Made by a program: the position numbers and the translations under genes. A model generated the notes under the pieces. That model was not told the origin of the DNA. It saw only the letters and a program-made list of their open reading frames with translations, and made no database searches. A stretch of DNA of 64,000 bases, from IMG/VR virus record IMGVR_UViG_3300049919_000280, positions 19,682 to 83,681 of that record; one strand, written 5' to 3'. Positions 1 to 29,633 of the stretch are shown in pieces (position 1 is the first letter of the stretch; each line of letters begins with the position of its first letter). The stretch comes from a virus. Its lineage: Duplodnaviria > Heunggongvirae > Uroviricota > Caudoviricetes.

Positions 1-35
1 CACACGGTCAATCCAATTTATTTAAGGAGAATGCA

Positions 36-161
36 ATGCAGCGAAATATTTACGCAAAAGAATTGCGCTCTCTTGGGCAGTTCAAGCAAAAGGTAGTGGA
101 TTCAAAGAAGGGTCGAGGTTCTTGGAAGCGGAAAGAGAAGCATCGAGTTTCCGAGGATTGA
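36..161 (+). CDS. small basic ORF (41 aa); may be the 3' end of a gene entering from upstream of the window
   Basis: AAGGAG sits 6 nt before the ATG at 36. The same frame stays open back to base 3, so the true start may be upstream. Confidence 0.25.
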   Translation: MQRNIYAKELRSLGQFKQKVVDSKKGRGSWKRKEKHRVSED

Positions 162-171
162 CAAAGATTTA

Positions 172-247
172 CTCTCAGTCGGTTAGCGGCTATACCACCT
201 CGTTTGGGGCGAGGATTTCGTGTGTTCGAGTCACACCTGAGAGACCA
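172..247 (+). tRNA. tRNA-Pro (anticodon UGG), CCA encoded
   Basis: Hand-folded cloverleaf: acceptor ctctcag/ctgagag; anticodon stem cctcg/cgagg with loop tttgggg; 5-nt variable loop; T arm gtgtg-ttcgagt-cacac; discriminator A then CCA. Confidence 0.7.
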
Positions 248-539
248 GAATTAAGATAGCGACGAGTATGGTCTAGAACAGAAACATCGCCGTAAATCGA
301 GGACTGGTAGGTTAGGCAACCTCGTTAAAAAGCCTACCCCAGATTTTAGAATGGAAGGATGTTGCAGATAAGTTAAAGTATTTGGAACAGTAAAAGAATT
401 CAAAGCAGTCGCATTCGGTTAATATCTGGATGGATGTGTGATGATAGGCAGATGTCAGTCTGCTCACGGTGCCGAAACTCATCGTGCTAGGGAGAAGTTG
501 GATACCGAAATCCGAAGCAAATGGGTTATACTTAACGAA

Positions 540-585
540 AGTGGTCTAATAAAACGGATACTTCCGTACCATATTAGTTGAGTAC
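540..585 (+). repeat. short member of the AAGTGGT ... CGGWTACTTC element family
   Basis: aagtggtctaataaaacggatacttccgtacc shares AAGTGGT and CGGATACTTC with the copies at 3012, 4473, 4634 and 4826. A local hairpin acgga/tccgt can form. Confidence 0.35.
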
Positions 586-780
586 CAAATGTTAAGATTG
601 GTCTAGTGGAATTGATCACCACGAAAACTGAGAGGATGCAGTGTATAAATGCCGACAAAGTTTCAAATATTTTTCGAGTAGGGCATTCTCGTCTAATGTC
701 AAAACGCTAAGACATCCGTAGGGTGTTGATCACGTTAGCGCAATCTGGGTACGATCTTAGACCAGAAAGAATTTGGTAGA

Positions 781-881
781 GTGTAAATTTGTGGAACGGC
801 GAAGTAGGAGAGTCGCGGCTGACTGTAAATCAGTTCCCTCTGGGTGAGTAAATTCGAATTTTACTTCCACAAATTTACACT
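781..881. repeat. 16-bp perfect inverted repeat (gtgtaaatttgtggaa / ttccacaaatttacac) enclosing 69 bp, just upstream of ORF 909
   Basis: Exact reverse-complement arms at 781-796 and 866-881. The enclosed segment contains the hairpin ctga-ctgtaaa-tcag. Confidence 0.55.
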
Positions 882-908
882 TTGGCCACTTCATAACTAG
901 GAGGCATT

Positions 909-1421
909 ATGTCCATGATGTTACGTTTAAACGAAGAATATGGGACAAGATTCCAGACGTTCCGAGAATTCTGCGAACTATCCGAATCGTTCAAACCAAA
1001 ACATACAGAATTCGGAACCGATGGTAAAAACGGAAAGTGGAACGAGAACGAATCCCATCACTGGACTTTCTTCTCTCATAAACCAGATCACCATGCATTC
1101 GTCCATTTGAGTAAGGAGTCTGGAGAATTTGGTTTCGGCACTCATCGTGGAGAATTTACCGACGATGTTGCAAATCACTACGATGAAGAACCAAAACATG
1201 TTGGCGAAGCATTGTCCGTGATGAATAAGGCGTTGCATGTCGCAGTGACGGGGGCAAAGGAGCATAGTCTAAAGCAGATTTTCATTCATGGTGCGAATAA
1301 CCACCTGAAACAAGTTTACGATAAGGCAATAGGAAACAAGTTTCTTCAGAAGCATATGGAAAGTCATGGATTCAAGTATTCGCATTCGTTTAAGGATCGG
1401 CATTACTTTTCTGCAGTATGA
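909..1421 (+). CDS. hypothetical protein (170 aa)
   Basis: Long ORF with the RBS aggagg 7 nt upstream. No family recognised. Confidence 0.7.
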   Translation: MSMMLRLNEEYGTRFQTFREFCELSESFKPKHTEFGTDGKNGKWNENESHHWTFFSHKPDHHAFVHLSKESGEFGFGTHRGEFTDDVANHYDEEPKHVGEALSVMNKALHVAVTGAKEHSLKQIFIHGANNHLKQVYDKAIGNKFLQKHMESHGFKYSHSFKDRHYFSAV

Positions 1422-1426
1422 TCAGT

Positions 1427-1509
1427 GCGGGAGTAGCCTAGAGGTCAGGCACCTGATTTCCAATCAGGCAGACGAGAGTCGCACGCAGGTTCAAATCCTG
1501 TCCCCCGCT
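1427..1509 (+). tRNA. type II tRNA (long variable arm); anticodon loop tttccaa gives UCC by position, so identity is unresolved
   Basis: Acceptor gcgggag/cccccgc with one A-C mismatch; 3-bp D stem gcc/ggc; anticodon stem cctga/tcagg; 16-nt variable arm with a gac-gaga-gtc hairpin; T arm gcagg-ttcaaat-cctgt. No CCA is encoded. Confidence 0.5.
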
Positions 1510-1548
1510 CACGAATTTCTCTTTTAAATCAACGAGTTACTGAAATTG

Positions 1549-1576
1549 TTGCATTCTCCTGTGATGTCTGTATAAT
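1549..1576 (+). promoter_or_regulatory. promoter TTGCAT-N16-TATAAT with upstream box AAATCAACGAGTTAC (1526-1540) and leader CATCGGAAC ... GGAG
   Basis: This is one member of a cassette repeated at least 10 times in the window; see findings. Confidence 0.5.
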
Positions 1577-1611
1577 TCATCACATCGGAACACAAACACA
1601 GGAGAAACATC

Positions 1612-1995
1612 GTGGCCTACGTCAACAAAGAAGTCATCGCAAAGTGTCGTGCTGGTGCAGCGGCAATTCGTAAACAGTATGGCATCAAGATGACGTTTTC
1701 AGTGAATCATGGATCGACTTTGGTTTGTAACATCGCCAGCGGTAATGTCGATTTCTTTGGTCAGATGACCGAGAAGAGTGCATCATATGCTGACGGAAAG
1801 TATTGCCAAGTGAATCATTACCACCTCGATTCCAGTTTCAAGGGAGAGGCTCTGGAATGTCTAGAAGCAATAAAGACTTTGATGCACGTCGATCATTGGG
1901 ATGAGTCCGATATCATGACCGATTATTTTTGCACATCATTTTACGTTAATATCCACGTGGGTAAATGGAACAAACCATACGTTTGTGTGGCATAA
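1612..1995 (+). CDS. hypothetical protein (127 aa), GTG start
   Basis: ORF directly follows the promoter/leader cassette (ggagaaacatcGTG). Confidence 0.55.
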   Translation: MAYVNKEVIAKCRAGAAAIRKQYGIKMTFSVNHGSTLVCNIASGNVDFFGQMTEKSASYADGKYCQVNHYHLDSSFKGEALECLEAIKTLMHVDHWDESDIMTDYFCTSFYVNIHVGKWNKPYVCVA

Positions 1996-2000
1996 GAATC

Positions 2001-2095
2001 AGTCCTGTAGTTTAATGGTAAAACTCCGAGCTTATACCTCGGCATTGCGGCTAGATTGGCTGATGATTTCGGTTCGAATCCGGACGGGACTACCA
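2001..2095 (+). tRNA. tRNA-like gene with a perfect anticodon arm (ccgag-cttatac-ctcgg, anticodon UAU, Ile-like) but about 25 extra nt between the anticodon and T arms; CCA encoded
   Basis: Acceptor agtcctg/cgggact; D arm gttt-aatggta-aaac; T arm ttcgg-ttcgaat-ccgga. At 95 nt it is too long for a normal tRNA. The next ORF starts 2 nt after the CCA. Confidence 0.4.
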
Positions 2096-2096
2096 A

Positions 2097-2366
2097 ATGA
2101 AAGTTGTTCATTGCAAGAAAGACCCTTTCGATATATACATCGGAAGACCAAGTAAATGGGGAAACCCATTTGAGATTGGGAAAGATGGTGATAGGAAAGC
2201 CGTTATATTGAAGTATGCGGCTTGGATACAAAAGCAACCAGACCTTCTTAGAGACATTTCAGAATTGAAGGGCAAGGTTCTTGGTTGTTGGTGCTATCCG
2301 AAAGCGTGTCATGGTGATGTTCTTTTGAGGTTGGCTAATGAATCCAGCTTATCTGATTTTATGTAA
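2097..2366 (+). CDS. DUF4326-like small protein (89 aa)
   Basis: The pattern GNPF ... GCWCYP ... CHGDVL resembles the DUF4326 family, which is often linked to ADP-ribose processing genes. Confidence 0.5.
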   Translation: MKVVHCKKDPFDIYIGRPSKWGNPFEIGKDGDRKAVILKYAAWIQKQPDLLRDISELKGKVLGCWCYPKACHGDVLLRLANESSLSDFM

Positions 2367-2381
2367 AGGGTTGGAGGTAAA

Positions 2382-2891
2382 ATGATATCAGTAAAAGAAA
2401 TATTCGCTAGGCGGCTTCAAGAGATGTTTGATTCTCCTTGGCCGACGACGGAAGATCAGGATGCGACTACTGCTGCCAATGATGACGTAAAGAACAGAAA
2501 ATTGCCGGTGTCTAGTGTTAAGGTATATGATCTTGGCGACGATAACGGTAAGATGATCACATACGTTCGCAACGGTGCATTGGAAGTGCATCATCAGGAC
2601 AATTCTGGGATATCTGGGGTTCTCCATCTAGGGAGAAATAAACCAAATCCAAGATTCGTTGGGACTATGATGCGACATCTTTTGAAGCACGGTCTAGAAA
2701 AGTCACATCCTGTTCGGATCATCGCGAAACAAAAGTTGTTCGTCCGGTATAAGTCTTTGATCGATAAACTGCTGAATCAGAAACTGTATCGGGTGGTTTA
2801 TTCGGAAGAAACTGTGGATGGTCAAGTTGTAGAAACTGCGACTATATATCCAAGGAATAAGATTTCGGAAGAGTATTTTCCGAAGTTTTGA
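2382..2891 (+). CDS. hypothetical protein (169 aa)
   Basis: Long ORF with RBS ggagg. Confidence 0.6.
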   Translation: MISVKEIFARRLQEMFDSPWPTTEDQDATTAANDDVKNRKLPVSSVKVYDLGDDNGKMITYVRNGALEVHHQDNSGISGVLHLGRNKPNPRFVGTMMRHLLKHGLEKSHPVRIIAKQKLFVRYKSLIDKLLNQKLYRVVYSEETVDGQVVETATIYPRNKISEEYFPKF

Positions 2892-2898
2892 AGTTTAT

Positions 2899-3007
2899 GG
2901 GGAGGTAATTCAGTTGGTAGAAGAGTGACAATCGGATAGTTATTGGGCAGGCGTCCTAGCTTGATTGTTGCGTTACGTCGGTGGTTCAAGTCCATCCCTC
3001 CCCACCA
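2899..3007 (+). ncRNA. tRNA-like RNA (109 nt) with acceptor, D and T arms plus CCA, but the anticodon arm is replaced by a 6-bp helix with a 29-nt loop
   Basis: Acceptor ggggagg/cctcccc followed by A-CCA; D loop agttggtag; T arm ggtgg-ttcaagt-ccatc; central helix acaatc/gattgt. No canonical anticodon stem-loop can be drawn. Confidence 0.4.
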
Positions 3008-3011
3008 ATAT

Positions 3012-3080
3012 TGACGTGGTGAAAAGAAATCGGTTACTTCATTTGGCGAAATCAATACCGAATTCTGAATGTTCCCGTCA
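3012..3080 (+). ncRNA. copy of the about 70-nt repeat-family element (gacgtggtg ... cggttacttc ... gaaa ... ataccg ... tgttccc)
   Basis: Near-colinear with the copies at 4634-4713 and 4826-4893. It lies immediately 3' of the tRNA-like gene. Confidence 0.4.
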
Positions 3081-3087
3081 TGAACTA

Positions 3088-3118
3088 CCGCGAAGCTAAA
3101 GACATCGCGGTTTTCTTG
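3088..3118 (+). terminator. rho-independent terminator (ccgcga-N11-tcgcgg followed by TTTTCTT)
   Basis: 6-bp GC-rich stem followed by a T tract. Confidence 0.6.
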
Positions 3119-3309
3119 CTTAAGGGACGATAAAGATGTGTCGTCGTGACATGAAGATTTGTCGCGACGATAATTAAGTAGAAACGGAGTCTATGACTCC
3201 ATCGGCGAACGTGGTAGCCGTTTCTGTGGCCGAAGTGATCACTGGGCAGCAGTAGCTAAGTCAAAATCAACTCTTCCAGATTATCGGACTAAATCTGACC
3301 AAATTCAAT

Positions 3310-3386
3310 GCATCCGTGGTCTAATTGTATAAGGCATCGCACTTCTAATGCGAACGATGGGAGTTAGAATCTCTCCGGGTGCACCA
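3310..3386 (+). tRNA. tRNA-Arg (anticodon UCU), CCA encoded
   Basis: Acceptor gcatccg/cgggtgc with a G-U pair; D arm gtct-aattgtata-aggc; anticodon stem tcgca/tgcga with loop cttctaa; T arm gggag-ttagaat-ctctc. Confidence 0.75.
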
Positions 3387-3420
3387 AAATACGTTGTAAA
3401 ATCAACGAGTTACAAATATC

Positions 3421-3449
3421 TTGCTTCTGCATTCACATGTCTGTATAAT
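3421..3449 (+). promoter_or_regulatory. promoter TTGCTT-N17-TATAAT with upstream AAAATCAACGAGTTAC box (3398-3413)
   Basis: Cassette member. Leader ttacatcgaaacaacaaacggagtaaacatcATG. Confidence 0.55.
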
Positions 3450-3483
3450 TCATTACATCGAAACAACAAACGGAGTAAACATC

Positions 3484-3834
3484 ATGAGCAAAAACATCGG
3501 ATACCACACTCGCCTGATCAGCAACAACGCAACAAAGGTTTGTGGCGGATCGTTTGGTGGCGAGGTTAGTGCTGATACGGTGGCCCGTTTGGTCAAGTCG
3601 CACTTTGATGTCGCAGTCAAGCCTTCTGGCGCTGTTGTTTTTGTTGATAAGAGTGGTCGCGAAGTTTCACTTTATCTCACAGTTGATCCGATGACTACTG
3701 ATATCGGCAAGGTTGCTAAGAAAGAATGGCTTGCTAAACGCAGTGCGGAACAAGACGAGTCTCGCGAAAAAATCGAGAGTCTTATGGCTGGACTTGATGA
3801 TGCTGAAATTATTCGTCGGTTGTCTGATTATTAA
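3484..3834 (+). CDS. hypothetical protein (116 aa)
   Basis: ATG follows the cassette leader. The track ORF 3348 overlaps tRNA-Arg, so the start was moved to 3484. Confidence 0.65.
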   Translation: MSKNIGYHTRLISNNATKVCGGSFGGEVSADTVARLVKSHFDVAVKPSGAVVFVDKSGREVSLYLTVDPMTTDIGKVAKKEWLAKRSAEQDESREKIESLMAGLDDAEIIRRLSDY

Positions 3835-3845
3835 GGAGATTTGCA

Positions 3846-4004
3846 ATGTGCTGCGAAGGATGGTATTACGATGACAAATGTGTCGATGGGGAGTGTCCAG
3901 ACTGCGGAGAACCCACTGTCGACGGCGAAGCCCAATCTGGTTGCCATTATTCGCCTTGCTCCTGCCAGACATGTAACTCTCGCCCGTGCGACGGAAGTTG
4001 TTGA
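3846..4004 (+). CDS. Cys-rich small protein (52 aa)
   Basis: AAGGAG RBS. The product has 11 Cys arranged in CxxC-like pairs. Confidence 0.45.
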   Translation: MCCEGWYYDDKCVDGECPDCGEPTVDGEAQSGCHYSPCSCQTCNSRPCDGSC

Positions 4005-4016
4005 CGGGAGTATAAA

Positions 4017-4142
4017 ATGAATATGCTAACATTAGAAGAAGCGTATGCCGAACATGTACATGTTCATAAAACCTTCGGAATCAAAGTGATGACCATCGAA
4101 CAATTCAGTGAATTTTGGAACCTCTTTCAGGAGACCAAATAA
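4017..4142 (+). CDS. small ORF (41 aa)
   Basis: Weak RBS gggag. Below the ORF-track cutoff. Confidence 0.3.
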   Translation: MNMLTLEEAYAEHVHVHKTFGIKVMTIEQFSEFWNLFQETK

Positions 4143-4437
4143 AGAAGTAGGTGCCAAGCTTATCATTCTGTTCCCTATGGATTGATGGCTTAAACAGGCG
4201 AAAAACACTCTTGATGTAGAGAGCCCATAGCTCAAGAGTGTCCTCATTTAAACTATGGGAGCGACTGTCGTCGTAGGTATGAGTTGCCAAAGACCATCAG
4301 AAAATGATTTAGGGATCATGAGTATGATGACAGAATAAATGGAGAGTTAACTGCTAAGGTAGCAGCGGGACTTGCTAAGTCTCTGGTCCCTGTAATATGG
4401 GATGGGAATCGTGATCTCAGCTCTCCTCCAATATTAC

Positions 4438-4466
4438 TTGACTTTGCAGAGCGATTAATGTAAAAT
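4438..4466 (+). promoter_or_regulatory. strong sigma70-type promoter TTGACT-N17-TAAAAT that fires into element E0
   Basis: Consensus-like hexamers with 17-bp spacing. The predicted start (about 4473) coincides with the conserved gaagtggt motif. Confidence 0.55.
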
Positions 4467-4472
4467 GTTTGA

Positions 4473-4590
4473 AGTGGTAAAGATTCAGCAGTAAAAGTTT
4501 TAATCCGTAGTGTAGGCATCAGTTACTTCAATGCTAATGACGAGGTGGTGGTTCGAATCCACCCAACACAAATCTGATTTGTGTTGAAGC
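4473..4590 (+). ncRNA. candidate small RNA E0: repeat-family motifs plus a perfect tRNA T-arm (ggtgg-ttcgaat-ccacc) and a 3' hairpin caacacaaat-ctg-atttgtgttg
   Basis: No ORF is present. It has its own promoter. It shares gaagtggt and cagttacttc..gctaatga with R1/R2. No acceptor or anticodon arms can be drawn, so it is not a real tRNA. Confidence 0.45.
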
Positions 4591-4633
4591 TCATGGATGA
4601 GCGCGAAAATCTCTGATGCCGTCTGTTCTCGGA

Positions 4634-4713
4634 AATGATTTATTTTAAAGTGGTGTGGATTGCGGTTACTTCCTTATAGACGAAACTTATACCGTGGTCG
4701 TTTGTTCCCTTTA
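4634..4713 (+). ncRNA. repeat-family element R1 (ttttaaagtggtgtgg ... cggttacttcc ... gaaac ... ataccgtggtcg tttgttcccttta)
   Basis: About 75% identical to R2 and to the 3012 copy. Substitutions keep the cggt/accg pairing (acgg/ccgt in R2). Confidence 0.4.
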
Positions 4714-4728
4714 ATTATGATGTATAAT

Positions 4729-4804
4729 TCCCTAGTAGCTCAGCTGGCAGAGCGTGGTGCTGTTAACACCGAGGTCACTCGTTCGAACCGAGTCTGGGGA
4801 GCCA
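4729..4804 (+). tRNA. tRNA-Asn (anticodon GUU), CCA encoded
   Basis: Acceptor tccctag/ctgggga; D arm gctc-agctggca-gagc; anticodon stem tggtg/caccg with loop ctgttaa; T arm actcg-ttcgaac-cgagt. Confidence 0.8.
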
Positions 4805-4825
4805 AAATTTGTAGTAGTTGTGAGT

Positions 4826-4893
4826 TTTAAAGTGGTGTAGACTAACGGTTACTTCTCGCTAATGAAACCATGCCGTAGTCATTTGTTCCCTTT
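4826..4893 (+). ncRNA. repeat-family element R2, directly upstream of the Ro60-like gene
   Basis: ttttaaagtggtgtagactaacggttacttctcgctaatgaaaccatgccgtagtcatttgttcccttta. It ends 15 nt before the ATG at 4909. Confidence 0.4.
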
Positions 4894-4908
4894 ACTTGGA
4901 GATTTAAA

Positions 4909-6342
4909 ATGTCGTCAATCAACAAAAAAGTTGAAGCAGAAAAGATTTACACTGATGGCGGAGCGATTGCTTCTCGCATCACTAAGATTCAAGAGCTTGA
5001 GCGAACTGTTATGTCCTGCATGCTGTGGGAAGATTCATACAGCGAAAGTGGCGTTAAAGTTGCAGATCGCATTAAGGAATTGGTGCATTCATGCAAGCCA
5101 GATGCTGTTGCAAAGATTGCTATTTCGGCACGTACCGATATGCATCTTCGTCACGTCCCGCTTTTCCTAGTTCGTGAGTTGGCTCGGCATGCTATGTCGC
5201 CTTCATATCCTAAACTCGTCGCGAATACTCTGACTGCAGTTATCCAGCGACCAGATGAAATTGCCGAATTCATGGCAATCTATCAGAAGGATGGAAAGCA
5301 GCCGCTGTCGAAGCAGGTTAAGATCGGTCTGGCTAATGCGTTCAAAAAATTCAACGAGTATAGCCTCGCAAAGTATTCTAGCGAAGGCAAGGAGTATTCG
5401 CTTCGTGATGTGTTGTTCCTAGTTCATGGCAAGCCTGCAGACGTTCCTGCTGATGCCACGAAGTATGATCGTGCTGCCCGTGTTATTGGTGTGAATCGCC
5501 AACTAACTGCAGGCGAGGCTCTGTATCGTCGTGTGTCAGAAAACGCTCTTGTGACCCCAGATACTTGGGAAGTCGAGTTGAGTTCTGGTGCGGATAAGGC
5601 GGAGACTTTTGTTCGCCTGATGGAAGAAGGCACTTTGGGTGCAATGGCGTTCCTGCGCAATCTTCGTGGTATGAAGGAAGCTAAAGTTCCGAAGATTAAT
5701 ATCAAGGAATATGCAGAAAAGGTAAAGGTTGACAAAATCCTACCGTTCCGATTTATCGCGTCTGCACGAGCGGTTCCTGAATGGGAAGATGTTATCGAGC
5801 CAATGATGCTGCGTTGCTTGGGTGGTCTGCCGAAGCTTTCTGGTAAGACTGTGTTCATTGTTGATATCTCTGGTTCCATGGGGCAACCTATTTCCAGCAA
5901 ATCAACTATGCGTCGTTATGATGCTGCGATGGCTCTTGTTATTCTGGCCAAGGAAATGTGCGAGGATGCTGTCATCTACGCAACTGCTGGTAGTGATGGA
6001 CAAGGCATTCATGCAACCGAAGTAATCCCTAATCGGAAAGGGTTTGCCATTGCCGATGCTCTTCGCAGCATGAACGCCAAGTTGGGTTTCGGTGGTATTT
6101 TCTTGAAGCAGACTTTGGATTACGTTCATGAAAGGGAATTGACTGCGGATCGAGTGATTGTATTCACCGATGAAATCGACTGCGATCATAAATGCAACCC
6201 TGCAGATGCGAAGGCGTTTGGTGGCAGCAATTACATCGTTAACATCGCTTCTCAGCGTAATGGAATTGCATACAACAAATTCACTCATATCGATGGGTGG
6301 AGTGAGCAGGTAATGGCTTTCATCCAAAAGTTGGAAGCATAA
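4909..6342 (+). CDS. rsr: Ro60/Rsr-like RNA-binding protein (helical N-terminal region plus C-terminal vWA domain with MIDAS motif DISGSMG)
   Basis: 477 aa. The vWA motif VFIVDISGSM ... TDEID sits at residues about 305-420 behind a roughly 300-aa helical N-terminal region, which is the TROVE+vWA layout. The gene is embedded among tRNA and tRNA-like RNAs, as in known rsr/Y-RNA loci. TROVE assignment is from memory, not from a search. Confidence 0.5.
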   Translation: MSSINKKVEAEKIYTDGGAIASRITKIQELERTVMSCMLWEDSYSESGVKVADRIKELVHSCKPDAVAKIAISARTDMHLRHVPLFLVRELARHAMSPSYPKLVANTLTAVIQRPDEIAEFMAIYQKDGKQPLSKQVKIGLANAFKKFNEYSLAKYSSEGKEYSLRDVLFLVHGKPADVPADATKYDRAARVIGVNRQLTAGEALYRRVSENALVTPDTWEVELSSGADKAETFVRLMEEGTLGAMAFLRNLRGMKEAKVPKINIKEYAEKVKVDKILPFRFIASARAVPEWEDVIEPMMLRCLGGLPKLSGKTVFIVDISGSMGQPISSKSTMRRYDAAMALVILAKEMCEDAVIYATAGSDGQGIHATEVIPNRKGFAIADALRSMNAKLGFGGIFLKQTLDYVHERELTADRVIVFTDEIDCDHKCNPADAKAFGGSNYIVNIASQRNGIAYNKFTHIDGWSEQVMAFIQKLEA

Positions 6343-6349
6343 AGGTTTA

Positions 6350-6421
6350 GCCGGTTTAGCTCAGTGGTAGAGCAACCGCCTTGTAAGCGGTAGGTCGTCT
6401 GTTCAATCCAGACAGCCGGCA
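6350..6421 (+). tRNA. tRNA-Thr (anticodon UGU)
   Basis: Acceptor gccggtt/agccggc; D arm gctc-agtggta-gagc; anticodon stem accgc/gcggt with loop cttgtaa; T arm gtctg-ttcaatc-cagac. No CCA is encoded. Confidence 0.8.
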
Positions 6422-6552
6422 TATAAATTTAGCACCATCTGTCTAATACCCATCAGCATATGGGAACTTAAACCACCACACATCTTGCGCAAGATTAACC
6501 GTGGATTGCTACAACTCAAATTGACAATGAGTTGGATGGTGCTAAATTTATG
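6422..6552. repeat. 17-bp perfect inverted repeat (ataaatttagcaccatc / gatggtgctaaatttat) enclosing 95 bp that include the 14-bp palindrome atcttgcgcaagat
   Basis: Arms at 6422-6439 and 6534-6552. Internal hairpin cccat-cagcat-atggg. Confidence 0.5.
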
Positions 6553-6581
6553 TTGATTTTAATATGTAAACGCGGTATAAT
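6553..6581 (+). promoter_or_regulatory. sigma70-type promoter TTGATT-N17-TATAAT for the helicase gene
   Basis: Consensus spacing. The track's ATG at 6582 lies inside this promoter, so the CDS start was moved to 6609. Confidence 0.6.
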
Positions 6582-6608
6582 ATGCGTTCATCTTCTTATA
6601 GGATTATT

Positions 6609-7901
6609 ATGGCTGATTACGCAAAACTAGCAACCAAGATGCTTGGGTTCCCTCTAAACGAAGACCAGAACGCTGCAATAAGCGAGATCGTAGAATGGGC
6701 AAACCAACCTCTTGCGGTCTCACCGTACAAAACACTGGGTGGGTATGCTGGAACTGGAAAGTCAACAATCGTAAAGGTTATCGTTAGCCTAGTTTCTAGT
6801 AACACTGCACTGTGCGCACCAACAAACAAAGCGGTTAAGGTTCTTAAGTCTCTAGGGACTGGACGAACATGCATGACCATTTATTCTCTTCTTGGTCTTC
6901 GTATGTCACAGCATGAGGATAAGCTAAAGCTCGAAAAGGCGTTGAAGGATAAGGTCGGCAGTTATAATCTAATCATCATCGATGAGGCTGGAATGATTGG
7001 CGAAGAACTTCTTGACTATATCGAGACAGCAACAAAGATGTATGGCGTTAAAGTTCTTTTCGTTGGTGACCCCGGCCAGTTGAATCCTATTGGAGAAGAC
7101 CTCTCTGAGATTTGGGGGCGTTATCCAATGATCATCCTTCGCAAGGTTGAGCGTCATGACAATCAGATTCTGGATTTTGCTACTCATATTCGCTCAACAA
7201 AAATTACTGCTCTTCGTTATGAAAATAATAACGATGGTATCGAGGGGGTATGGGATTTGGATATGACAAAATTCAAGGGTACCATCAAGGACTATGCAGC
7301 GGCTGGTTCTTTCCACGGAACAAAAAGTCGTGTTCTAGCATGGAGAAATAAAACTGTTGATGAATATAATGAATTCATTCGGCATTGCATCCATGGGGTT
7401 AGGGCTAAGAAAGAAGAATGGATTGAGGGGGATCGTGTAGTATTCACCGCACCGTTTGGCGATGATATCATTACAGACGACGAAGGCTATGTTAGGTCAA
7501 TGTCGGTTGGGTTCAGTCGAGATTATCCAAGATTCAAGTGCATCCATCTTGAAGTAATGTTGAACGACGAATATCCAATCATCGTACCAATTATTCATCC
7601 TGACTCAGATGATGATTATGTTGACGAACTCAGTCTAATATCCATGCAGGCTAGGAAATATAAAGAGGCAAAGGATTTTAAGGCTTCTGGTGCAAAGTGG
7701 AAAGAATACTGGACTCTCGTTGATTCCTTCGTGAAGATAAAGCATGGTTACGCACTTACCGCACATCGGGCACAAGGATCGACTTATGAGAACGTTTTCG
7801 TTGATGTTAGTGACATTCTAACGAACAGCAATCGCAAAGAAGCTAAGCGGTGTTTATATGTTACTGCAACCAGACCTACAACTAGGTTGTTCCTGACATG
7901 A
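6609..7901 (+). CDS. dda: Dda-like SF1B DNA helicase (430 aa)
   Basis: Walker A GYAGTGKST; C-terminal motif ALTAHRAQGSTYENVFVD typical of the RecD/Dda family. Size matches T4 Dda (439 aa). Confidence 0.7.
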   Translation: MADYAKLATKMLGFPLNEDQNAAISEIVEWANQPLAVSPYKTLGGYAGTGKSTIVKVIVSLVSSNTALCAPTNKAVKVLKSLGTGRTCMTIYSLLGLRMSQHEDKLKLEKALKDKVGSYNLIIIDEAGMIGEELLDYIETATKMYGVKVLFVGDPGQLNPIGEDLSEIWGRYPMIILRKVERHDNQILDFATHIRSTKITALRYENNNDGIEGVWDLDMTKFKGTIKDYAAAGSFHGTKSRVLAWRNKTVDEYNEFIRHCIHGVRAKKEEWIEGDRVVFTAPFGDDIITDDEGYVRSMSVGFSRDYPRFKCIHLEVMLNDEYPIIVPIIHPDSDDDYVDELSLISMQARKYKEAKDFKASGAKWKEYWTLVDSFVKIKHGYALTAHRAQGSTYENVFVDVSDILTNSNRKEAKRCLYVTATRPTTRLFLT

Positions 7902-9444: not shown

Positions 9445-10254
9445 ATGTCAAAAATTAAAGATGCGCTTGGAGACAAGCTAAAGGAATATGAAATGGTTGA
9501 AGCTGGTCGGCGATGCATGAAAGGTCTGCCGATTGTCGCTAGACTTGATGGTCGTGCGTTTAGCAGCTTCACCAAAGGTCTGGCTCGACCTTATGATATT
9601 CGCATGAGCGCAGCGATGGTGGAGACCACGAAGTATTTGGTTGCCACCACTGGCGCTTTAATTGGTTACTGTCAGAGCGATGAAATTTCACTCCTATACT
9701 TCGTTGAAGCTGATGGGGTTGAGGATTATGCTTTTTCAGGCAGGTTCCAGAAACTAACCAGTATCCTCGCATCGACTGCTTCTGTCATGTTTTACTCTGA
9801 AGTGATTAAAAACATTCCAGAAAAGGCAGACAAACTTCCTGTGTTTGATTGCCGCATCATGCAACTTCCAACCAAAGAGATTGCAGCTGAGTGCTTCAAG
9901 TGGCGTGAATTGGATGCGACAAAGAATGCTGTTAGCATGGCTGCACATTCGATGATTCCACACAAAGAACTCGAAGGGCTCAAGGGCTGGCAAAAGCAGG
10001 AGTTAATGTTTAGTCGATTCGGCGTCAATTTCAACGATTACCCAGTGTTCTTTAAGCGTGGGACTTATGTCCGTAAGGAACCCATCCTTATCCCACTGGA
10101 CGAAGAGACACGAAATAAAATTCCAGCGGATAGGAGACCACCAAAGGGATTTTCGGTAATTCGTAATATGATGGCAGAACTTGATTGGGAGCCATGTACC
10201 AAGTATGATTCGGTTGAATGGACCAACATGATTTTTGGCGATGAGCCTAATTGA
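9445..10254 (+). CDS. Thg1-like protein (tRNA-His guanylyltransferase / 3'-5' polymerase family)
   Basis: VARLDGRAFSSF, GYCQSDEISLLY, FDCRIMQLP and KWRELDATKNA match Thg1 motifs VVRLDGRNFHRF, YGQSDEYSF, FDGRVVVYP and SWRQADCHINN (recalled from memory). Confidence 0.75.
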   Translation: MSKIKDALGDKLKEYEMVEAGRRCMKGLPIVARLDGRAFSSFTKGLARPYDIRMSAAMVETTKYLVATTGALIGYCQSDEISLLYFVEADGVEDYAFSGRFQKLTSILASTASVMFYSEVIKNIPEKADKLPVFDCRIMQLPTKEIAAECFKWRELDATKNAVSMAAHSMIPHKELEGLKGWQKQELMFSRFGVNFNDYPVFFKRGTYVRKEPILIPLDEETRNKIPADRRPPKGFSVIRNMMAELDWEPCTKYDSVEWTNMIFGDEPN

Positions 10255-21382: not shown

Positions 21383-22186
21383 ATGAGTGTAAAATTATTT
21401 GGTGGGAATCAGTTCATCGAGCTTAAATGGTGGGATTTCCCTGCAGGCGAGCGTGGGGTTAAGATCGTTGATCCGTTGGATATTGAGCGATACAAGTCAT
21501 TCACGGTGCATTGCTTGTTCAAGGGTTCGAGCGACCTGATTGATGTTATGCTTCTGGTAAATGCCTGCCGTAATGTTATGGGAACGGTGAAGTTGCGTCT
21601 GCAGATTCCATATTTTCCTTATGCTCGGCAGGATCGGGTTTCTGTTGCAGGAGAATCGTTTTCATTGCAGATTGCTGCGGATGTCATCAAGTCATGCAAC
21701 TTCTATGAGGTTGAAGTCTGGGATGCACATAGTGACGTTCTTGCTGGAATGTTTCCAGCAGGTGTCTTGAAGAATAAGACACAAGCTGAACTGGCAGATA
21801 TCTTTTTCATTCTAGGCGGATATTCTTCTGATCAGGTTGCCATCATTTCACCTGACGCTGGAGCCCTGAAGAAAATTTATGCGGTTGCCAAGCGGATCAA
21901 TTGTGATGTAATTTGTGCAAGCAAGAATCGTGATCCGAAGACTGGCAATATCACTGAGACGACGATTGACAGCAGTGAGTTTCATCGGTATGATAGAATG
22001 GTAATTGTGGATGATATCTTAGATGGCGGAAAAACATTTTTGGATTTGGGTAATCTCATTCGAAAAACATATTCCGGAGAACTTGGGTTGCACGTAACAC
22101 ACGGGCTATTTACCAAGGGTAAGGATGCGCTTCTGGAAAATTTTGATGGTATTAGCGCGGCCATCGACTACACTGAAACTAATTGA
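21383..22186 (+). CDS. truncated ribose-phosphate pyrophosphokinase (Prs) homolog; candidate ADP-ribose pyrophosphokinase (Adps)
   Basis: VKLFGGNQFIEL, IPYFPYARQDRV, IISPDAGAL and VIVDDILDGGKTF align with E. coli Prs MKLFAGNATPEL, IPYFGYARQDRR, VVSPDIGGV and VLVDDMIDTGGTL. It is 267 aa versus 315. Confidence 0.7.
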   Translation: MSVKLFGGNQFIELKWWDFPAGERGVKIVDPLDIERYKSFTVHCLFKGSSDLIDVMLLVNACRNVMGTVKLRLQIPYFPYARQDRVSVAGESFSLQIAADVIKSCNFYEVEVWDAHSDVLAGMFPAGVLKNKTQAELADIFFILGGYSSDQVAIISPDAGALKKIYAVAKRINCDVICASKNRDPKTGNITETTIDSSEFHRYDRMVIVDDILDGGKTFLDLGNLIRKTYSGELGLHVTHGLFTKGKDALLENFDGISAAIDYTETN

Positions 22187-22197
22187 GGAGTAATATT

Positions 22198-23946
22198 ATG
22201 GGACGATTTAAGCAGACTGCATTGACTTCAGTGGATAGTTACAAAACGGCACATGCCGATATGCTACCCACTGGAACTGAGCAAATTTACAGCAACTTCA
22301 CTCCTCGTTCAATGAAGCACTTCAATGTGCCGGAAGAGTACAAGGCAGACAAGAAGATCGTTTGGGTTGGCCTGCAGGCATTCATGTACGAGTTGAAGGA
22401 AGTGTGGCAAGAGACCTTCTTCGAGCGTCATGTTGATGCGGTATGTAATGAATTTTCTGAATTCGTCGCCCCGTTTGCTGGCCCTCGTGGCTTCAACATT
22501 GAACGGGTTCGCGCATTACACAAACTTGGGTATCTGCCAATTCGCATCAAGTCACTACCAGAAGGTTCGCGGGTTAATGTTGGAGTTCCATGCCTGACTA
22601 TCACCAACACGGTAAGCGAATTTGCATGGCTTACGAACTATCTGGAAACTTGGATTAGTTGCGAAATGTGGAAGATTTGTACGAGTGCCACTACCGCTGC
22701 AGTGTATCGCAAGATTTGTGAGAAATATGCAGACCTTACTGGTGGATCGAAGGAATTCATTCAATGGCAATGCCATAATTTTGCGGATCGTGGGCAAAGT
22801 GGAATCCAAGATGCTGCGAAGTCTGGTGTTGGTCACTTGCTGAGTTTCACCGGCACAGATTCATTGTCTTCTGTTAAGCTGATCAATGACGTTTATGAAG
22901 GCAAAAAGACATTTGTTGGCGGTAGTGTTCCTGCCTCCGAACATATGGTGCAATGTGCAGGTTCGATGGAAGGTGAGTTGGAAACATATCGTCGCCTGAT
23001 CAAGGATTACCCTAGCGGTGTTGTTTCTATCGTGTCAGATACTTGGAATTTTTGGGATGTCATCACTAAGACTGCAGCTACTCTGAAAGAAGAAATTCTT
23101 GCTCGGGTTCCTGATCAGTTTGGATTGGCAAAGGTCGTGTTCCGCCCAGATTCTGGTGATCCGGTTGATATCATTTGTGGCGATGAAATTCGTGATATTT
23201 CTAGCTATCTAACCGAAAATTCGACAATTGAAGCGATAGGTGCGGAAGCGGTAGATTTCCTAAGCGGTGCAGTATTTATCAAAACCCCTCATGGTGAGTG
23301 TGGTGACAGCAGCCCCTCAGCGATATTCAAATGTTTCGGTAAATACTACAAAGTAACAGCTAACATCGAATGGAATCGTTACGACAAGCAGTATTATTAC
23401 ATCGATGGCAGCAACCTAGAATCAATTGAAGAAGTCCAATTGTCTCCGGCGCAAAAGGGCGCAGTAGAATGTCTCGCTGAAATTTTTGGCACCACCACTA
23501 ATGACAAGGGATTCAAAACTCTGAATCAACGAGTTGGTTTGATTTATGGCGACAGCATCACTCCGCAGCGTGCCATTGCGATTTTCGAGCGACTTGCAGC
23601 TAAGGGATATGCCAGCGACAATATCGTTTTTGGGGTGGGTAGTTATACTTACTCCTATGTAACTCGGGACTCACTAGGTTTCGCAATGAAGGCAACTAAC
23701 GTCGTTATCAATGGCGAAAGTCGAGCGATTTTCAAAGACCCAGCCACTGACACTGACAAGACCAAGAAGTCTGCAAAGGGTCTTCTTCGAGTTGATCGAG
23801 TTGGCAAGGACTTTGTGCTGCGGGATAACGTCACTGCAGAAGAGGAAGCTGGTGGCGAGTTGAAAGTCGTGTTTGAAAACGGCAACATCTTGTCGAGAGA
23901 GAACTTTGCGGACATGCGCAGCCGTTTGGAATTGGCTTCTCAGTAG
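22198..23946 (+). CDS. nicotinamide phosphoribosyltransferase family enzyme (Nampt/NadV-like; candidate Namat)
   Basis: The N-terminal TDSYKTAH motif matches Nampt TDSYK. Large (582 aa) and directly 3' of the Prs homolog. Confidence 0.6.
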   Translation: MGRFKQTALTSVDSYKTAHADMLPTGTEQIYSNFTPRSMKHFNVPEEYKADKKIVWVGLQAFMYELKEVWQETFFERHVDAVCNEFSEFVAPFAGPRGFNIERVRALHKLGYLPIRIKSLPEGSRVNVGVPCLTITNTVSEFAWLTNYLETWISCEMWKICTSATTAAVYRKICEKYADLTGGSKEFIQWQCHNFADRGQSGIQDAAKSGVGHLLSFTGTDSLSSVKLINDVYEGKKTFVGGSVPASEHMVQCAGSMEGELETYRRLIKDYPSGVVSIVSDTWNFWDVITKTAATLKEEILARVPDQFGLAKVVFRPDSGDPVDIICGDEIRDISSYLTENSTIEAIGAEAVDFLSGAVFIKTPHGECGDSSPSAIFKCFGKYYKVTANIEWNRYDKQYYYIDGSNLESIEEVQLSPAQKGAVECLAEIFGTTTNDKGFKTLNQRVGLIYGDSITPQRAIAIFERLAAKGYASDNIVFGVGSYTYSYVTRDSLGFAMKATNVVINGESRAIFKDPATDTDKTKKSAKGLLRVDRVGKDFVLRDNVTAEEEAGGELKVVFENGNILSRENFADMRSRLELASQ

Positions 23947-28375: not shown

Positions 28376-28657
28376 GTGAAGAAAAAGAAATTATTTGATG
28401 TATTCGGTAAAGAAGTAAAATTACCTAAATGTAAAGTATATCTTTCGCGCAGGAATCTTGAGGCGTTGATATCTAAGCTTGATCGTGTTGCTGCAGGAGA
28501 GTCGTCGGAGTGTGCCATCATAAAGCGAGATAACGCACATCCAGAATATGCTCAGTCGATGAAGGAGATTATGGTGGTTGCAGTCGAGAACGAAAAATAC
28601 TACGTGGATCGTCCTGCTGGGCTGATGATGCCTGCTGATGTGAAGACCATATCGTGA
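28376..28657 (+). CDS. hypothetical protein (93 aa), GTG start
   Basis: ORF. Confidence 0.5.
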   Translation: MKKKKLFDVFGKEVKLPKCKVYLSRRNLEALISKLDRVAAGESSECAIIKRDNAHPEYAQSMKEIMVVAVENEKYYVDRPAGLMMPADVKTIS

Positions 28658-29631: not shown

Positions 29632-29633
29632 AG

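What the first reader, a model, noticed from the sequence alone, without database searches (positions are those of the whole stretch)
4438..6342. Ro60/Rsr-like TROVE-vWA gene sits in a nest of tRNA-like and repeated small-RNA elements, a candidate phage rsr / Y-RNA module
The 477-aa protein at 4909-6342 has the Ro60 layout: a helical N-terminal region followed by a vWA domain with the MIDAS motif DISGSM. Ro60 orthologs act with Y RNAs, which are normally encoded next to rsr and carry tRNA-like domains. Here the gene is immediately preceded by three related elements: R2 (4826-4893), tRNA-Asn, R1 (4634-4713) and E0 (4473-4590). E0 has no ORF, its own TTGACT-N17-TAAAAT promoter, a perfect tRNA T-arm (GGTGGTTCGAATCCACC) and a closing hairpin. 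That fits a tRNA-mimic small RNA. The resulting model is a phage RNA-surveillance module working with the RNA-repair genes elsewhere in the window.
Basis: partly seen in the sequence, partly recalled or inferred. Interest (0 to 1): 0.85.

Follow-up and report, generated by a model that had tools for sequence, protein, structure and literature searches.

The report
Phage Ro60 gene with Y RNAs
A T4-like phage carries a Ro60-type RNA-binding protein gene preceded by four small structured RNA genes, one of them a tRNA mimic; they belong to a large conserved family of Y RNAs, a known kind of system in a form that the public RNA catalogue does not cover.

Summary
The finding is real and its core interpretation holds. 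The 477-aa protein (4909-6342) is a Ro60/TROVE-vWA homolog. It passes the Pfam TROVE and Ro60-vWA thresholds. Its closest solved structure is Thermus phage phiLo Ro60 (E 3e-21).

R1 and R2 are genuine, and two corrections apply. E0 really spans 4503-4634. Its "closing hairpin" is the acceptor-like stem of a circularly permuted tRNA-like domain (V, T arm, acceptor-like stem, D arm), which is the YrlA layout. A fourth copy at 3012-3080 was missed.

All four share one core:
- a terminal helix with a single bulged U (NNNNG[U]RG / CYCNNNN);
- an asymmetric internal loop;
- a second helix, then UACUUC.

Covariance models find more than 100 such elements in 44 of 49 related viral loci, every one on the Ro60 gene's strand and mostly within 500 nt upstream. 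A model built without E0 scores it at 79 bits (E 4e-18). Compensatory changes are abundant. Starting from the RNA pattern alone, 97 of 119 viral stretches carry a Ro60 homolog, always on the same strand.

Phage Ro60/Y-RNA modules are already known, so this is a new member. Rfam's YrlA model misses this subfamily. Any link to the window's RNA-repair genes is untested.

The parts
4909..6342 (+). Ro60/Rsr-like protein gene (477 aa): TROVE (HEAT-repeat ring) region followed by a Ro60-type vWA domain with MIDAS motif DISGS. RBS GGAG at 4898-4901.
   Evidence: Pfam TROVE E 2.7e-13 and vWA_Ro60 above cut-off. PHROG phrog_850 'RNA-binding protein' E 1.4e-28, residues 4-476. PDB 9KOP/9L5Y phiLo Ro60 E 3.4e-21, residues 28-476.
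4503..4634 (+). Long-form Y RNA (corrected E0), YrlA-like. P1: 4504-4507 + 4509-4510 pair with 4628-4633, with U4508 bulged. P2: GGCAUCAG 4515-4522 / CUGAUGCC 4613-4620. UUACUUC 4523-4529 opens the V region (to 4546). T arm 4547-4563. Acceptor-like stem 4564-4586 (10 bp, loop CUG). AA. D arm 4589-4602.
   Evidence: Model R2, built from 28 related sequences without this one, matches it end to end at 79 bits, E 4.4e-18 in 64 kb. The unconstrained MFE fold reproduces all helices. Weak Rfam tRNA (23.4 bits) and permuted-tmRNA-type hits fall on the T arm and acceptor-like stem.
4646..4713 (+). Short-form Y RNA (R1): P1 UAAAG[U]GG / CCCUUUA, 4x7 internal loop, P2 GAUUGCGGU / ACCGUGGUC, apical loop UACUUC...CGAAAC.
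   Evidence: Model R1 65.4 bits, E 2e-14. MFE fold equals the family consensus.
4828..4894 (+). Short-form Y RNA (R2). It ends 14 nt before the Ro60 start codon. Relative to R1, its P2 keeps pairing through U-G>C-G, U-G>U-A and G-U>A-U changes.
   Evidence: Model R1 63.6 bits. Folds.
3012..3080 (+). Fourth, previously unnoticed short-form Y RNA, directly after an atypical tRNA-like gene (2899-3004).
   Evidence: Model R1 59.1 bits, E 1e-12. Regex hit. MFE fold.
4729..4804 (+). tRNA-Asn(GUU), lying between R1 and R2. It probably supplies RNase P/Z processing sites for a polycistronic transcript (inferred).
   Evidence: ARAGORN. Rfam tRNA 55.6 bits.
6350..6421 (+). tRNA-Thr(UGU), starting 8 nt after the Ro60 stop codon. 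Part of the same tightly packed gene string.
   Evidence: ARAGORN. Rfam tRNA 71 bits.
4438..4466 (+). Sigma-70-like promoter match TTGACT-N17-TAAAAT, a candidate start of the Y RNA / tRNA / Ro60 transcript (unproven).
   Evidence: Consensus scan, 10 of 12 matches. Such sites are not enriched over shuffles.
4467..4502 (+). Leader carrying an orphan copy of the 5' P1 motif (UGAAGUGGUAAAG) with no UACUUC and no 3' partner. Likely a truncated element.
   Evidence: Alignment A1. No model hit. Can pair with UUACUUCAA of E0 in an alternative fold.

Best explanation
This is a phage-encoded Ro60 ribonucleoprotein module.

The gene string is: promoter-like site, leader, long Y RNA, short Y RNA, tRNA-Asn, short Y RNA, Ro60 gene, tRNA-Thr. 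It is probably transcribed as one unit, with tRNA-type processing cutting it into stable RNAs of 67-132 nt (inferred). A further short Y RNA lies 1.9 kb upstream.

Each RNA presents the same protein-recognition platform: a terminal helix with one bulged U next to invariant G-C pairs, plus a conserved asymmetric internal loop. By analogy with animal, Deinococcus and Thermus-phage Ro60, this platform docks on the outer face of the Ro60 ring and gates its cavity (inferred).

The long form also carries a circularly permuted tRNA-like domain. As in YrlA/Yrn1, that domain could tether the ring to a tRNA-binding or exoribonuclease partner such as host PNPase. The complex would then reshape the decay or quality control of structured RNAs (tRNAs, rRNA) during infection, possibly as a counter-defence measure.

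Shown here: the protein family, the RNA family, its structure, and its linkage to Ro60 genes. Inferred: transcription, processing, binding, partners and physiological role.
For: Protein:
- TROVE and Ro60-vWA hits are above the Pfam cut-offs.
- phrog_850 matches over the full length.
- The best PDB relative is phiLo Ro60, which binds two upstream Y-like RNAs and host PNPase in vitro (PMC12135203).

RNA family:
- A regex for the core gives 52 hits on the gene strand and 0 on the other strand.
- RNAalifold on a plain MAFFT alignment recovers P1 with the bulge, plus P2; 12 of 15 pairs show compensatory changes.
- For the short form, 92.4% of cells are paired against 64% in shuffles, and the covariation score is 0.80 against 0.23, with 0 of 500 shuffles as high.
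- For the long form, 97.7% of cells are paired and 21 of 23 pairs are compensatory.
- The G-C to A-U switch across the bulge (GUGG/UUCCC versus GUAG/UUCUC) recurs in E0 and in L012, L022, L028 and L037.

Distribution:
- Model R1 finds 104 hits in 44 of 50 sources, all on the gene strand: 99 upstream, median 220 nt from the gene.
- Model R2 finds 123 hits, all on the gene strand.
- E0 scores 79 bits with a model that excludes it.
- Rfam YrlA matches the long form of L044 at 48.8 bits, E 5e-10.
- Starting from the RNA pattern, 97 of 119 viral stretches and 50 of 120 bacterial stretches hold a Ro60 homolog, always on the same strand.
- Cultured phages carry the same arrays: 8 elements in CcrColossus, 5 in Xanthomonas phage Olaya, and elements downstream of the gene in a crAss-like phage.
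Against: - There are no expression, processing or binding data for this phage.
- Folding energies of the single sequences are no better than shuffled sequence.
- Rfam YrlA gives no hit to E0 even at E<=10.
- The published YrlA 5' motif GNCGAAN0-1G is absent at the equivalent place. UUACUUC sits there instead.
- Only 3 of the 8 phiLo Ro60 residues shown to contact RNA are basic at the aligned positions, although the alignment is about 22% identical and imprecise.
- The sequences used in the alignments were partly chosen for pairing in P1 and in the T, acceptor-like and D helices. That inflates the paired percentages for those helices. P2 was not selected for.
- About 18% of the viral stretches ascertained by RNA show no Ro60 gene in the stored flank.
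Confidence: 0.78

Rival explanations
1. The elements act mainly in cis. They would be Ro60-binding operators and/or processing signals within the leader of the Ro60 mRNA (autoregulation of translation or transcript stability), not free-standing small RNAs.
For: R2 ends 14 nt before the start codon, just ahead of the RBS. In the related loci, the nearest element often ends 12-30 nt from the gene start. The elements are densely packed with tRNAs, as in a single transcript.
Against: Elements also occur downstream of the gene (L002, L007, L021, a crAss-like phage). They occur separated from it by tRNAs and ORFs (window 3012-3080; L010). In 22 viral stretches no Ro60 gene is present in the stored flank. 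Arrays of up to 8 copies, and the tRNA-like domain, are hard to explain as an operator. Cis and trans roles are not mutually exclusive.
Confidence: 0.1
2. The tRNA-like long form, and perhaps the short forms too, are decoys or baits that work independently of Ro60. Examples would be soaking up host anticodon nucleases, tRNA-modifying enzymes or tRNA-sensing defence systems. The linkage to Ro60 would then be only shared regulation within a tRNA-centred counter-defence island.
For: The module sits in a tRNA cluster (8 tRNA-type genes in 1-6421) in a phage that also encodes Thg1-like, RNA ligase and SAK-type HAD repair proteins. Orphan elements without a nearby Ro60 gene exist. A Ro60-like protein of phage Bas63, encoded next to tRNA genes, counters the ppl defence system (PMC11482910).
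Against: The most conserved part of every element is the bulged terminal helix and internal loop, not the tRNA-like domain, and short forms lack that domain altogether. Where a Ro60 gene is present the strand linkage is 97/97 and 50/50. That fits a dedicated protein partner better.
Confidence: 0.09
3. The elements are decayed tRNA genes and selfish or recombinational repeats with no function of their own.
For: E0 gives a weak tRNA hit of 23.4 bits. tRNA finders and annotators call parts of related elements as tRNA: CcrColossus 'tRNA-Gln', and ARAGORN tRNA-Asn in phage Olaya. An orphan half-element lies at 4467-4502.
Against: Structure is preserved through many compensatory changes across loci whose Ro60 proteins are 35-56% identical to the window's. 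Strand bias and gene linkage are absolute. The primary sequence in the unpaired loops is conserved. Decaying genes do not behave this way.
Confidence: 0.03

Closest known systems
YrlA (Rfam RF02553), the tRNA-like Y RNA of Salmonella, Mycobacterium smegmatis and many bacteria and phages (Chen et al. 2014, PMC4201824)
   Same: It is encoded next to Ro60 on the same strand. The 5' and 3' ends pair to form a stem. The interior holds V, T arm, acceptor-like stem-loop and D arm in that permuted order. The T loop is UUCGAAU and the D loop contains GG. The YUAY that opens the V region equals UUAC of UUACUUC. The long form in related locus L044 matches the Rfam model at 48.8 bits, E 5e-10.
   Different: The Rfam gathering score of 69 is never reached in 39 related loci, and E0 is not matched at all. 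The GNCGAAN0-1G motif is absent at the 5' side. This subfamily adds an outer helix with a bulged U and a conserved YGNAG/UUGUU internal loop that lie outside the Rfam model. E0 has AA rather than UA between the acceptor-like stem and the D arm, a short 6-nt D loop and a 10-bp acceptor-like stem.
Thermus phage phiLo Ro60 with Yrl1/Yrl2 (PDB 9KOP, 9L5Y; PMC12135203)
   Same: It is the closest solved protein (E 3.4e-21 over residues 28-476). It is phage-encoded, with short stem-bulge-stem RNAs encoded next to the gene. The RNAs bind the protein, and with host PNPase they form a RYPER-like complex that slows PNPase in vitro.
   Different: Identity is only about 22%. In the phiLo locus, models R1 and R2 give only weak hits, which lie downstream of the gene (21.5 and 15.5 bits), so Yrl1/2 are not clear members of this RNA family. 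phiLo's RNAs were defined by a CGAA motif near the 5' end; here CGAA(A) occurs in 3 of 4 elements but on the 3' side of the apical region.
Deinococcus radiodurans Rsr-Yrn1-PNPase (RYPER), and Salmonella Rsr with YrlA/YrlB
   Same: Several Y RNAs are encoded per locus upstream of the gene. One carries tRNA-like features and another is shorter (YrlB-like). The Y RNA tethers the ring to an exoribonuclease.
   Different: Those are bacterial stress-response operons (in Salmonella, with rtcB/rtcA). Here the module is in a lytic T4-like phage, embedded in a tRNA cluster, with no adjacent rtcBA. No phage PNPase was seen among the ORFs scanned.
Metazoan Ro60 with Y RNAs (hY1-5, Xenopus Y3)
   Same: The RNA is about 70-130 nt. 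The terminal stem is formed by both ends and has a conserved single-nucleotide bulge in the 5' strand flanked by G-C pairs. A large internal or apical loop carries the variable module.
   Different: The bulged base and helix sequence differ (C in GGUC[C]GA versus U in G[U]GG). Metazoan Y RNAs are Pol III transcripts with La-binding U tails, and have no tRNA-like domain.
Escherichia phage Bas63 gp130 (PhageMaP preprint, PMC11482910)
   Same: A Ro60-like phage protein encoded beside a tRNA gene cluster. The authors suspected that some 'tRNA genes' there are Y RNAs. Misannotation of Y RNA parts as tRNA is shown here for CcrColossus.
   Different: gp130 was linked to Ro60 by structural similarity. 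No homolog from Escherichia phages was prominent in the tblastn results. Its anti-ppl role has not been tested for this family.

Membership tests
Ro60 / Rsr (TROVE-vWA) proteins | TROVE (HEAT-repeat ring) domain recognised by the curated profile | tested here: met
   PF05731, 50.3 bits against a cut-off of 23, E 2.7e-13. phrog_850 aligned over residues 4-476.
Ro60 / Rsr (TROVE-vWA) proteins | C-terminal Ro60-type vWA domain with MIDAS motif DxSxS | tested here: met
   PF25045, 28.6 bits against a cut-off of 27.7 (marginal). DISGS is present in the sequence and aligns with DVSGS of phiLo Ro60.
Ro60 / Rsr (TROVE-vWA) proteins | Full-length similarity to a Ro60 with a solved ring structure | tested here: met
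   9KOP/9L5Y, E 3.4e-21, query residues 28-476 aligned to chain residues 36-483.
Ro60 / Rsr (TROVE-vWA) proteins | Closed toroid with a central cavity, and a basic outer surface for the Y RNA stem | tested here: inconclusive
   No structure was predicted. Of the 8 phiLo residues whose mutation weakens RNA binding (paper numbering R137, K141, K142, R163, R169, R173, R178, K193), 3 align with K/R in the window protein (K138, R166, K175) and 3 more have a K/R within 1-3 residues. The alignment is too weak to decide.
YrlA (Rfam RF02553) | Permuted tRNA-like domain: V, T arm, acceptor-like stem-loop, D arm, enclosed by a stem formed from both ends | tested here: met
   For E0: T arm 4547-4563, acceptor-like stem 4564-4586, D arm 4589-4602, P2 4515-4522/4613-4620, P1 4504-4510/4628-4633. 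The helices covary across 29 sequences.
YrlA (Rfam RF02553) | Score at or above the Rfam gathering threshold (69 bits) | tested here: not met
   No YrlA hit to E0 at E<=10. The best relative scores 48.8 bits. There were no gathering-level hits in 39 loci.
YrlA (Rfam RF02553) | GNCGAAN0-1G motif near the 5' end (Chen et al. 2014) | tested here: not met
   The equivalent position carries CAGUUACUUC (family consensus GGUUACUUC). CGAA occurs instead 3' of the D arm (GCGCGAAAAUC, 4602-4612).
YrlA (Rfam RF02553) | Encoded within 4 kb of Ro60 on the same strand | tested here: met
   E0 ends 274 nt upstream of the start codon, on the + strand. The same holds for 99 of 104 family hits.
Y RNA (functional class) | RNA of 80-130 nt with a long terminal stem holding a conserved bulged helix, plus a large internal or apical loop | tested here: met
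   Sizes are 67-69 nt (short forms, slightly below the classical range) and 132 nt (long form). P1 with one bulged U, and covariation across the bulge, are shown.
Y RNA (functional class) | Stable transcript bound by Ro60 in vivo | not testable with these tools
   Needs Northern blot or RNA-seq and RIP/CLIP from infected cells.
Canonical tRNA (for E0) | Cloverleaf with anticodon arm and 5'/3' acceptor ends; tRNA-finder call | tested here: not met
   ARAGORN makes no call at 4503-4634. Rfam tRNA scores 23.4 bits, below the threshold of 29. There is no anticodon arm, and the acceptor-like stem is closed by a loop.
Phage/bacterial Y-RNA subfamily defined here (models R1 and R2) | NNNNG[U]RG ... 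(G/A)UWCUUC ... UGUUCYCNNNN core with P1 and P2 | tested here: met
   Window elements score 59.1, 63.6 and 65.4 bits with R1 (these three were in its seed). E0 scores 79 bits with R2, which excluded it.

The most novel reading that the evidence does not exclude
The short-form elements (R1, R2, 3012-3080) and their tRNA-like long-form relatives may define a large, so far uncatalogued Y-RNA subfamily. It would have its own recognition helix (G[U]GG/CCC plus a YGNAG/UUGUU loop). It occurs in tandem arrays of up to 8 copies interleaved with tRNA genes, across diverse phages (T4-like, Caulobacter jumbo phages, Xanthomonas phages, crAss-like phages) and many bacterial genomes. On this reading the array is a set of interchangeable adaptors that load one Ro60 ring onto different partners. 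The module would serve phage counter-defence or tRNA-pool maintenance rather than a stress response.
Probability: 0.35. Interest if true: 0.65.

Novelty: new member of a known kind. Interest (0 to 1): 0.45.

Why it matters
Ro60-Y RNA particles are conserved from bacteria to humans and are a major lupus/Sjogren autoantigen, yet their roles in bacteria and phages remain poorly defined.

This window gives a clean, compact example. The comparative work it prompted yields a precise and testable RNA recognition element: one bulged U flanked by covarying pairs and a conserved internal loop. That element is shared by hundreds of loci which the curated YrlA model misses.

The work also shows that parts of these RNAs are being annotated as tRNA genes in phage genomes. 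It provides two covariance models that could re-annotate them, including in crAss-like gut phages, whose Ro60 homologs may be relevant to the proposed microbial triggers of anti-Ro60 autoimmunity.

The kind of system is already known in phages, so the value is in definition and scope rather than surprise.

Tried and rejected
1. Near-identity DNA search of 4100-6600 against GenBank phages found only tRNA-Thr fragments, so there are no close relatives.
2. Rfam at permissive thresholds on the window gave no Y_RNA or YrlA hit, only a weak tRNA hit and a permuted-tmRNA-type hit on the T arm plus acceptor-like stem.
3. Single-sequence thermodynamic folding was uninformative (z about -0.4 to -0.6).
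4. E0's hairpin as an intrinsic terminator was rejected: no U tract follows it, it was not called by the terminator scan, and it is positionally the acceptor-like stem.
5. Minus-strand transcription of R1/R2 was rejected: the G-U pairs work only on the + strand, and there are 0 minus-strand family hits.
6. The short-form model does not detect E0 (7.7 bits). A separate long-form model was needed.
7. The phiLo Yrl1/Yrl2 region was tested as a member of this RNA family. Only weak hits were found, downstream of the gene, so membership is not established.
8. I looked for an alternative partner gene next to 'orphan' elements. The downstream ORFs are heterogeneous, with no recurring candidate.
9. Conservation of the phiLo RNA-contact residues was inconclusive.
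10. No supplementary tables of Chen et al. 2014 are held. I therefore could not check which phage YrlA copies, for example in CcrColossus, they had already listed.
11. The Sim et al. 2020 review was not available.
12. The exact-pattern scan of the 596-Gb genome collection should yield on the order of hundreds of chance matches by my own estimate. Bacterial stretches without a Ro60 gene (70 of 120) were therefore not interpreted.
Full report
**Setting**

The window is part of a T4-like myovirus. It encodes gp32 (41873-42769), gp5 and gp6 baseplate proteins and a Dda/RecD-type helicase (6582-7901). The gp32 is about 40% identical to that of Synechococcus T4-like phages. No close DNA relative exists in GenBank phages.

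The first 6.4 kb form a tRNA cluster. ARAGORN calls seven tRNAs, and Rfam adds an eighth, atypical tRNA-like gene at 2899-3004.

**The protein**

The ORF at 4909-6342 (477 aa) passes three independent tests:
- Pfam TROVE: 50.3 bits against a cut-off of 23.
- Pfam Ro60-specific vWA domain: 28.6 bits against a cut-off of 27.7.
- PHROG phrog_850 'RNA-binding protein', aligned over its whole length.

Its best match among solved structures is the Ro60 homolog of Thermus phage phiLo (9KOP/9L5Y, E 3.4e-21, residues 28-476). The MIDAS motif DISGS is present and aligns with DVSGS of phiLo.

The protein is a Ro60/Rsr homolog. tblastn finds homologs at about 40% identity in 93 GenBank phages, including Brevundimonas and Caulobacter jumbo phages, Xanthomonas phages and crAss-like Bacteroides phages. 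It also finds them in 49 IMG/VR contigs at 35-56% identity.

**Anatomy of the RNAs in the window**

R1 and R2 are clear direct repeats.

In E0, the T arm (4547-4563) directly abuts a 10-bp hairpin (4564-4586). This is followed by AA and a D-arm-like hairpin, GCUC-AUGGAU-GAGC (4589-4602). The whole is enclosed by GGCAUCAG (4515-4522) pairing with CUGAUGCC (4613-4620). That is the order V - T - acceptor-like stem - D described for YrlA RNAs (PMC4201824).

**The comparative step that settles it**

A scan of the 49 loci looked for a T arm abutting a hairpin followed by a D arm. It found such modules in about half of the loci, almost all just upstream of the Ro60 homolog on its strand, often two or three per locus.

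Reading the upstream DNA of the closest relatives showed tandem arrays of one element:

5' NNNNG-U-RG-YGNAG - helix - (G/A)UWCUUC - variable insert - helix' - UUGUUCYC-NNNN 3'

The insert is either about 20 nt (short form) or a V/T/acceptor-like stem/D tRNA-like domain (long form).

E0 (4503-4634) is a long form. The stretch 4467-4502 carries only an orphan copy of the 5' motif.

**Structure and statistics**

- On a plain MAFFT alignment of 19 short forms, RNAalifold predicts P1 (four variable pairs, G-C, a bulged U, R-Y, G-C) and P2 (8-9 bp). 12 of 15 pairs are kept through double changes.
- Pair counting on that alignment gives 92.4% paired cells against 63.9% in shuffles, and about 39-50% when partners are slid by 1-3 columns. 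The covariation score is 0.80 against 0.23, with 0 of 500 shuffles as high.
- For 29 long forms, P1, the T arm, the acceptor-like stem and the D arm are 97.7% paired, with 21 of 23 pairs compensatory.
- Where GUGG becomes GUAG, UUCCC becomes UUCUC. This is seen in E0 and in L012, L022, L028 and L037. Where G becomes A at the pair before the bulge, C becomes U (L015, L002, L007). This fixes the U as a bulge.

Caveat: I chose sequences partly by requiring pairing in P1 and in the T, acceptor-like and D helices. Those percentages are therefore inflated. P2 and the strand and linkage statistics are free of that bias.

**Searches with models**

- Model R1 (short form) finds 104 matches in the window plus 43 of the 49 loci, every one on the gene strand. 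99 are upstream, with a median of 220 nt from the gene and 76 within 500 nt. There are one to five per source.
- Model R2 (long form, built without E0) finds 123 matches in the loci, all on the gene strand.
- In the 64-kb window, R2 matches E0 end to end at 79 bits, E 4.4e-18. The only other significant matches are R1 and the 3012 element.
- In cultured phages the same arrays appear in unannotated DNA beside the TROVE gene. There are eight elements in Caulobacter phage CcrColossus, five in Xanthomonas phage Olaya, and weaker ones downstream of the gene in a crAss-like phage.

**Linkage tested from the RNA side**

An exact-pattern scan of IMG/VR for the core returned at least 119 stretches. Of these, 97 contain a Ro60 homolog, always on the same strand as the RNA and usually 14-600 nt downstream of it. 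The other 22 carry high-scoring elements (26-69 bits) but no detectable Ro60 gene in the stored flank. One of them comes from a contig whose Ro60 gene lies in another stored stretch, so some are distant extra copies, like 3012-3080 here.

The same pattern occurs in bacterial genomes. 50 of 120 stretches carry a same-strand homolog that is 52-65% identical to the phage proteins. Chance matches are expected in a collection that large, so the remaining 70 were not interpreted.

**Relation to known families**

Rfam's YrlA model matches the long form of L044 at 48.8 bits (E 5e-10), below its gathering score of 69. It does not match E0 at E<=10. It gives no gathering-level hit in 39 loci, including CcrColossus and Olaya.

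In that alignment the family's CGGUUACUUC lies where YrlA has its GNCGAAN0-1G motif. The outer bulged helix lies outside the Rfam model.

E0 is therefore YrlA-like in architecture but fails two sequence-level criteria. The short forms have no Rfam counterpart; functionally they resemble YrlB or phiLo Yrl2.

Phage Ro60/Y-RNA modules are already published:
- YrlA-like RNAs in 22 phages (PMC4201824).
- phiLo Ro60 binding Yrl1/Yrl2 and host PNPase (PMC12135203).
- TROVE proteins noted in jumbo-phage RNA-repair contexts (PMC7824862).
- Bas63 gp130, a Ro60-like protein next to tRNA genes that counters the ppl defence (PMC11482910).

**How it most likely works**

Shown here: a Ro60 gene; four RNA genes with a shared covarying structure whose most conserved part is a bulged terminal helix plus internal loop; tight packing with tRNA genes (spacers of 11-23 nt, with R2 ending 14 nt before the start codon).

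Inferred:
- The string is co-transcribed from about 4473 and processed by tRNA-maturation enzymes.
- The bulged helix is the Ro60 docking site, as in Xenopus, Deinococcus and phiLo.
- The tRNA-like domain of the long form recruits a partner such as host PNPase.
- The short forms act as simple gates or competitors.

The physiological role is open. Candidates are RNA quality control of the phage/host tRNA pool, modulation of host RNA decay, or counter-defence. The Thg1-like, RNA ligase and SAK-HAD genes elsewhere in the window fit an RNA-maintenance theme, but nothing tested here links them to the module.

**Verdict**

The system is a new member of a known kind, with a well-defined RNA subfamily that current catalogues miss. 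Interest is moderate.

Noticed in passing
window 2899-3004: An atypical 106-nt tRNA-like gene. Rfam tRNA scores it at 38.8 bits (above threshold), but ARAGORN does not call it. It has a 7-bp acceptor stem, an encoded CCA and about 35 extra nt between the D and T arms. The fourth Y RNA starts 8 nt after it.
   Followed up: partly
window 1427-1510, 2001-2095, 769-892: tRNA-Gly(UCC) and tRNA-Ile(UAU) carry 13- and 22-nt inserts at the variable-arm position, which is unusual for these isoacceptors. tRNA-Tyr (789-873) is flanked by a 28-nt inverted repeat (769-796/865-892) that would extend its acceptor stem.
   Followed up: no
window 6422-6552: A 131-nt element closed by a perfect 17-18-bp stem, immediately after tRNA-Thr and before the helicase promoter-like sites. 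Its fold energy is -42.4 kcal/mol, z = -6.8. On the minus strand it contains a minimal P1-like hairpin AUGUG[U]GG...CCCAUAU (6458-6483; 13.4 bits, E 0.018 in 4 kb), which may be chance.
   Followed up: partly
window 4467-4502: An orphan 5' half of a Y element (UGAAGUGGUAAAG...) lies between the promoter-like site and E0. It can pair with UUACUUCAA of E0 in an alternative fold. It is a possible remnant of recombination between array copies.
   Followed up: partly
window 1526-1592 and 3399-3465: A repeated cassette (15 nt at 100% and 29 nt at 93% identity, the latter containing TATAAT) follows tRNA-Gly and tRNA-Arg. It looks like a repeated promoter for the next small ORFs.
   Followed up: no
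L051 1673-1740 (Caulobacter phage CcrColossus JX100810) and L053 2285-2355 (Xanthomonas phage Olaya): The annotated 'tRNA-Gln' of CcrColossus is the 5' half of a long-form Y RNA (R2 hit 1670-1832, 90.7 bits), and ARAGORN finds no tRNA there. Conversely, ARAGORN calls a tRNA-Asn inside a 105-bit Y RNA hit in Olaya. Y RNAs are being mistaken for tRNA genes.
   Followed up: yes
L054-L172 (22 of 119 stretches, e.g. L116, L153, L064, L078): High-scoring Y elements (26-69 bits) occur with no Ro60 homolog in several kb of stored flank. The downstream genes are heterogeneous. They are either distant extra copies or orphan RNAs that use a Ro60 encoded elsewhere.
   Followed up: partly
window 9445-10254, 28654-29301, 29619-30677, 21383-23946: The window encodes a Thg1-like 3'-5' polymerase, a HAD domain of the 'Swiss Army Knife' RNA-repair type, an Rnl-type RNA ligase, and an NAD salvage pair (PRPP synthetase and NAMPT). 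Together they form a tRNA/RNA-maintenance and NAD-restoration toolkit typical of counter-defence.
   Followed up: partly
L013 1353-1739, L016 1690-2083, L230: In related loci the Ro60/Y-RNA arrays sit next to phage tmRNA genes (permuted tmRNA in L013, standard tmRNA in L016). In one case they sit next to an array of about 20 tRNA genes in a bacterial MAG 'chromosome' (L230), probably a prophage or a mis-binned phage.
   Followed up: no
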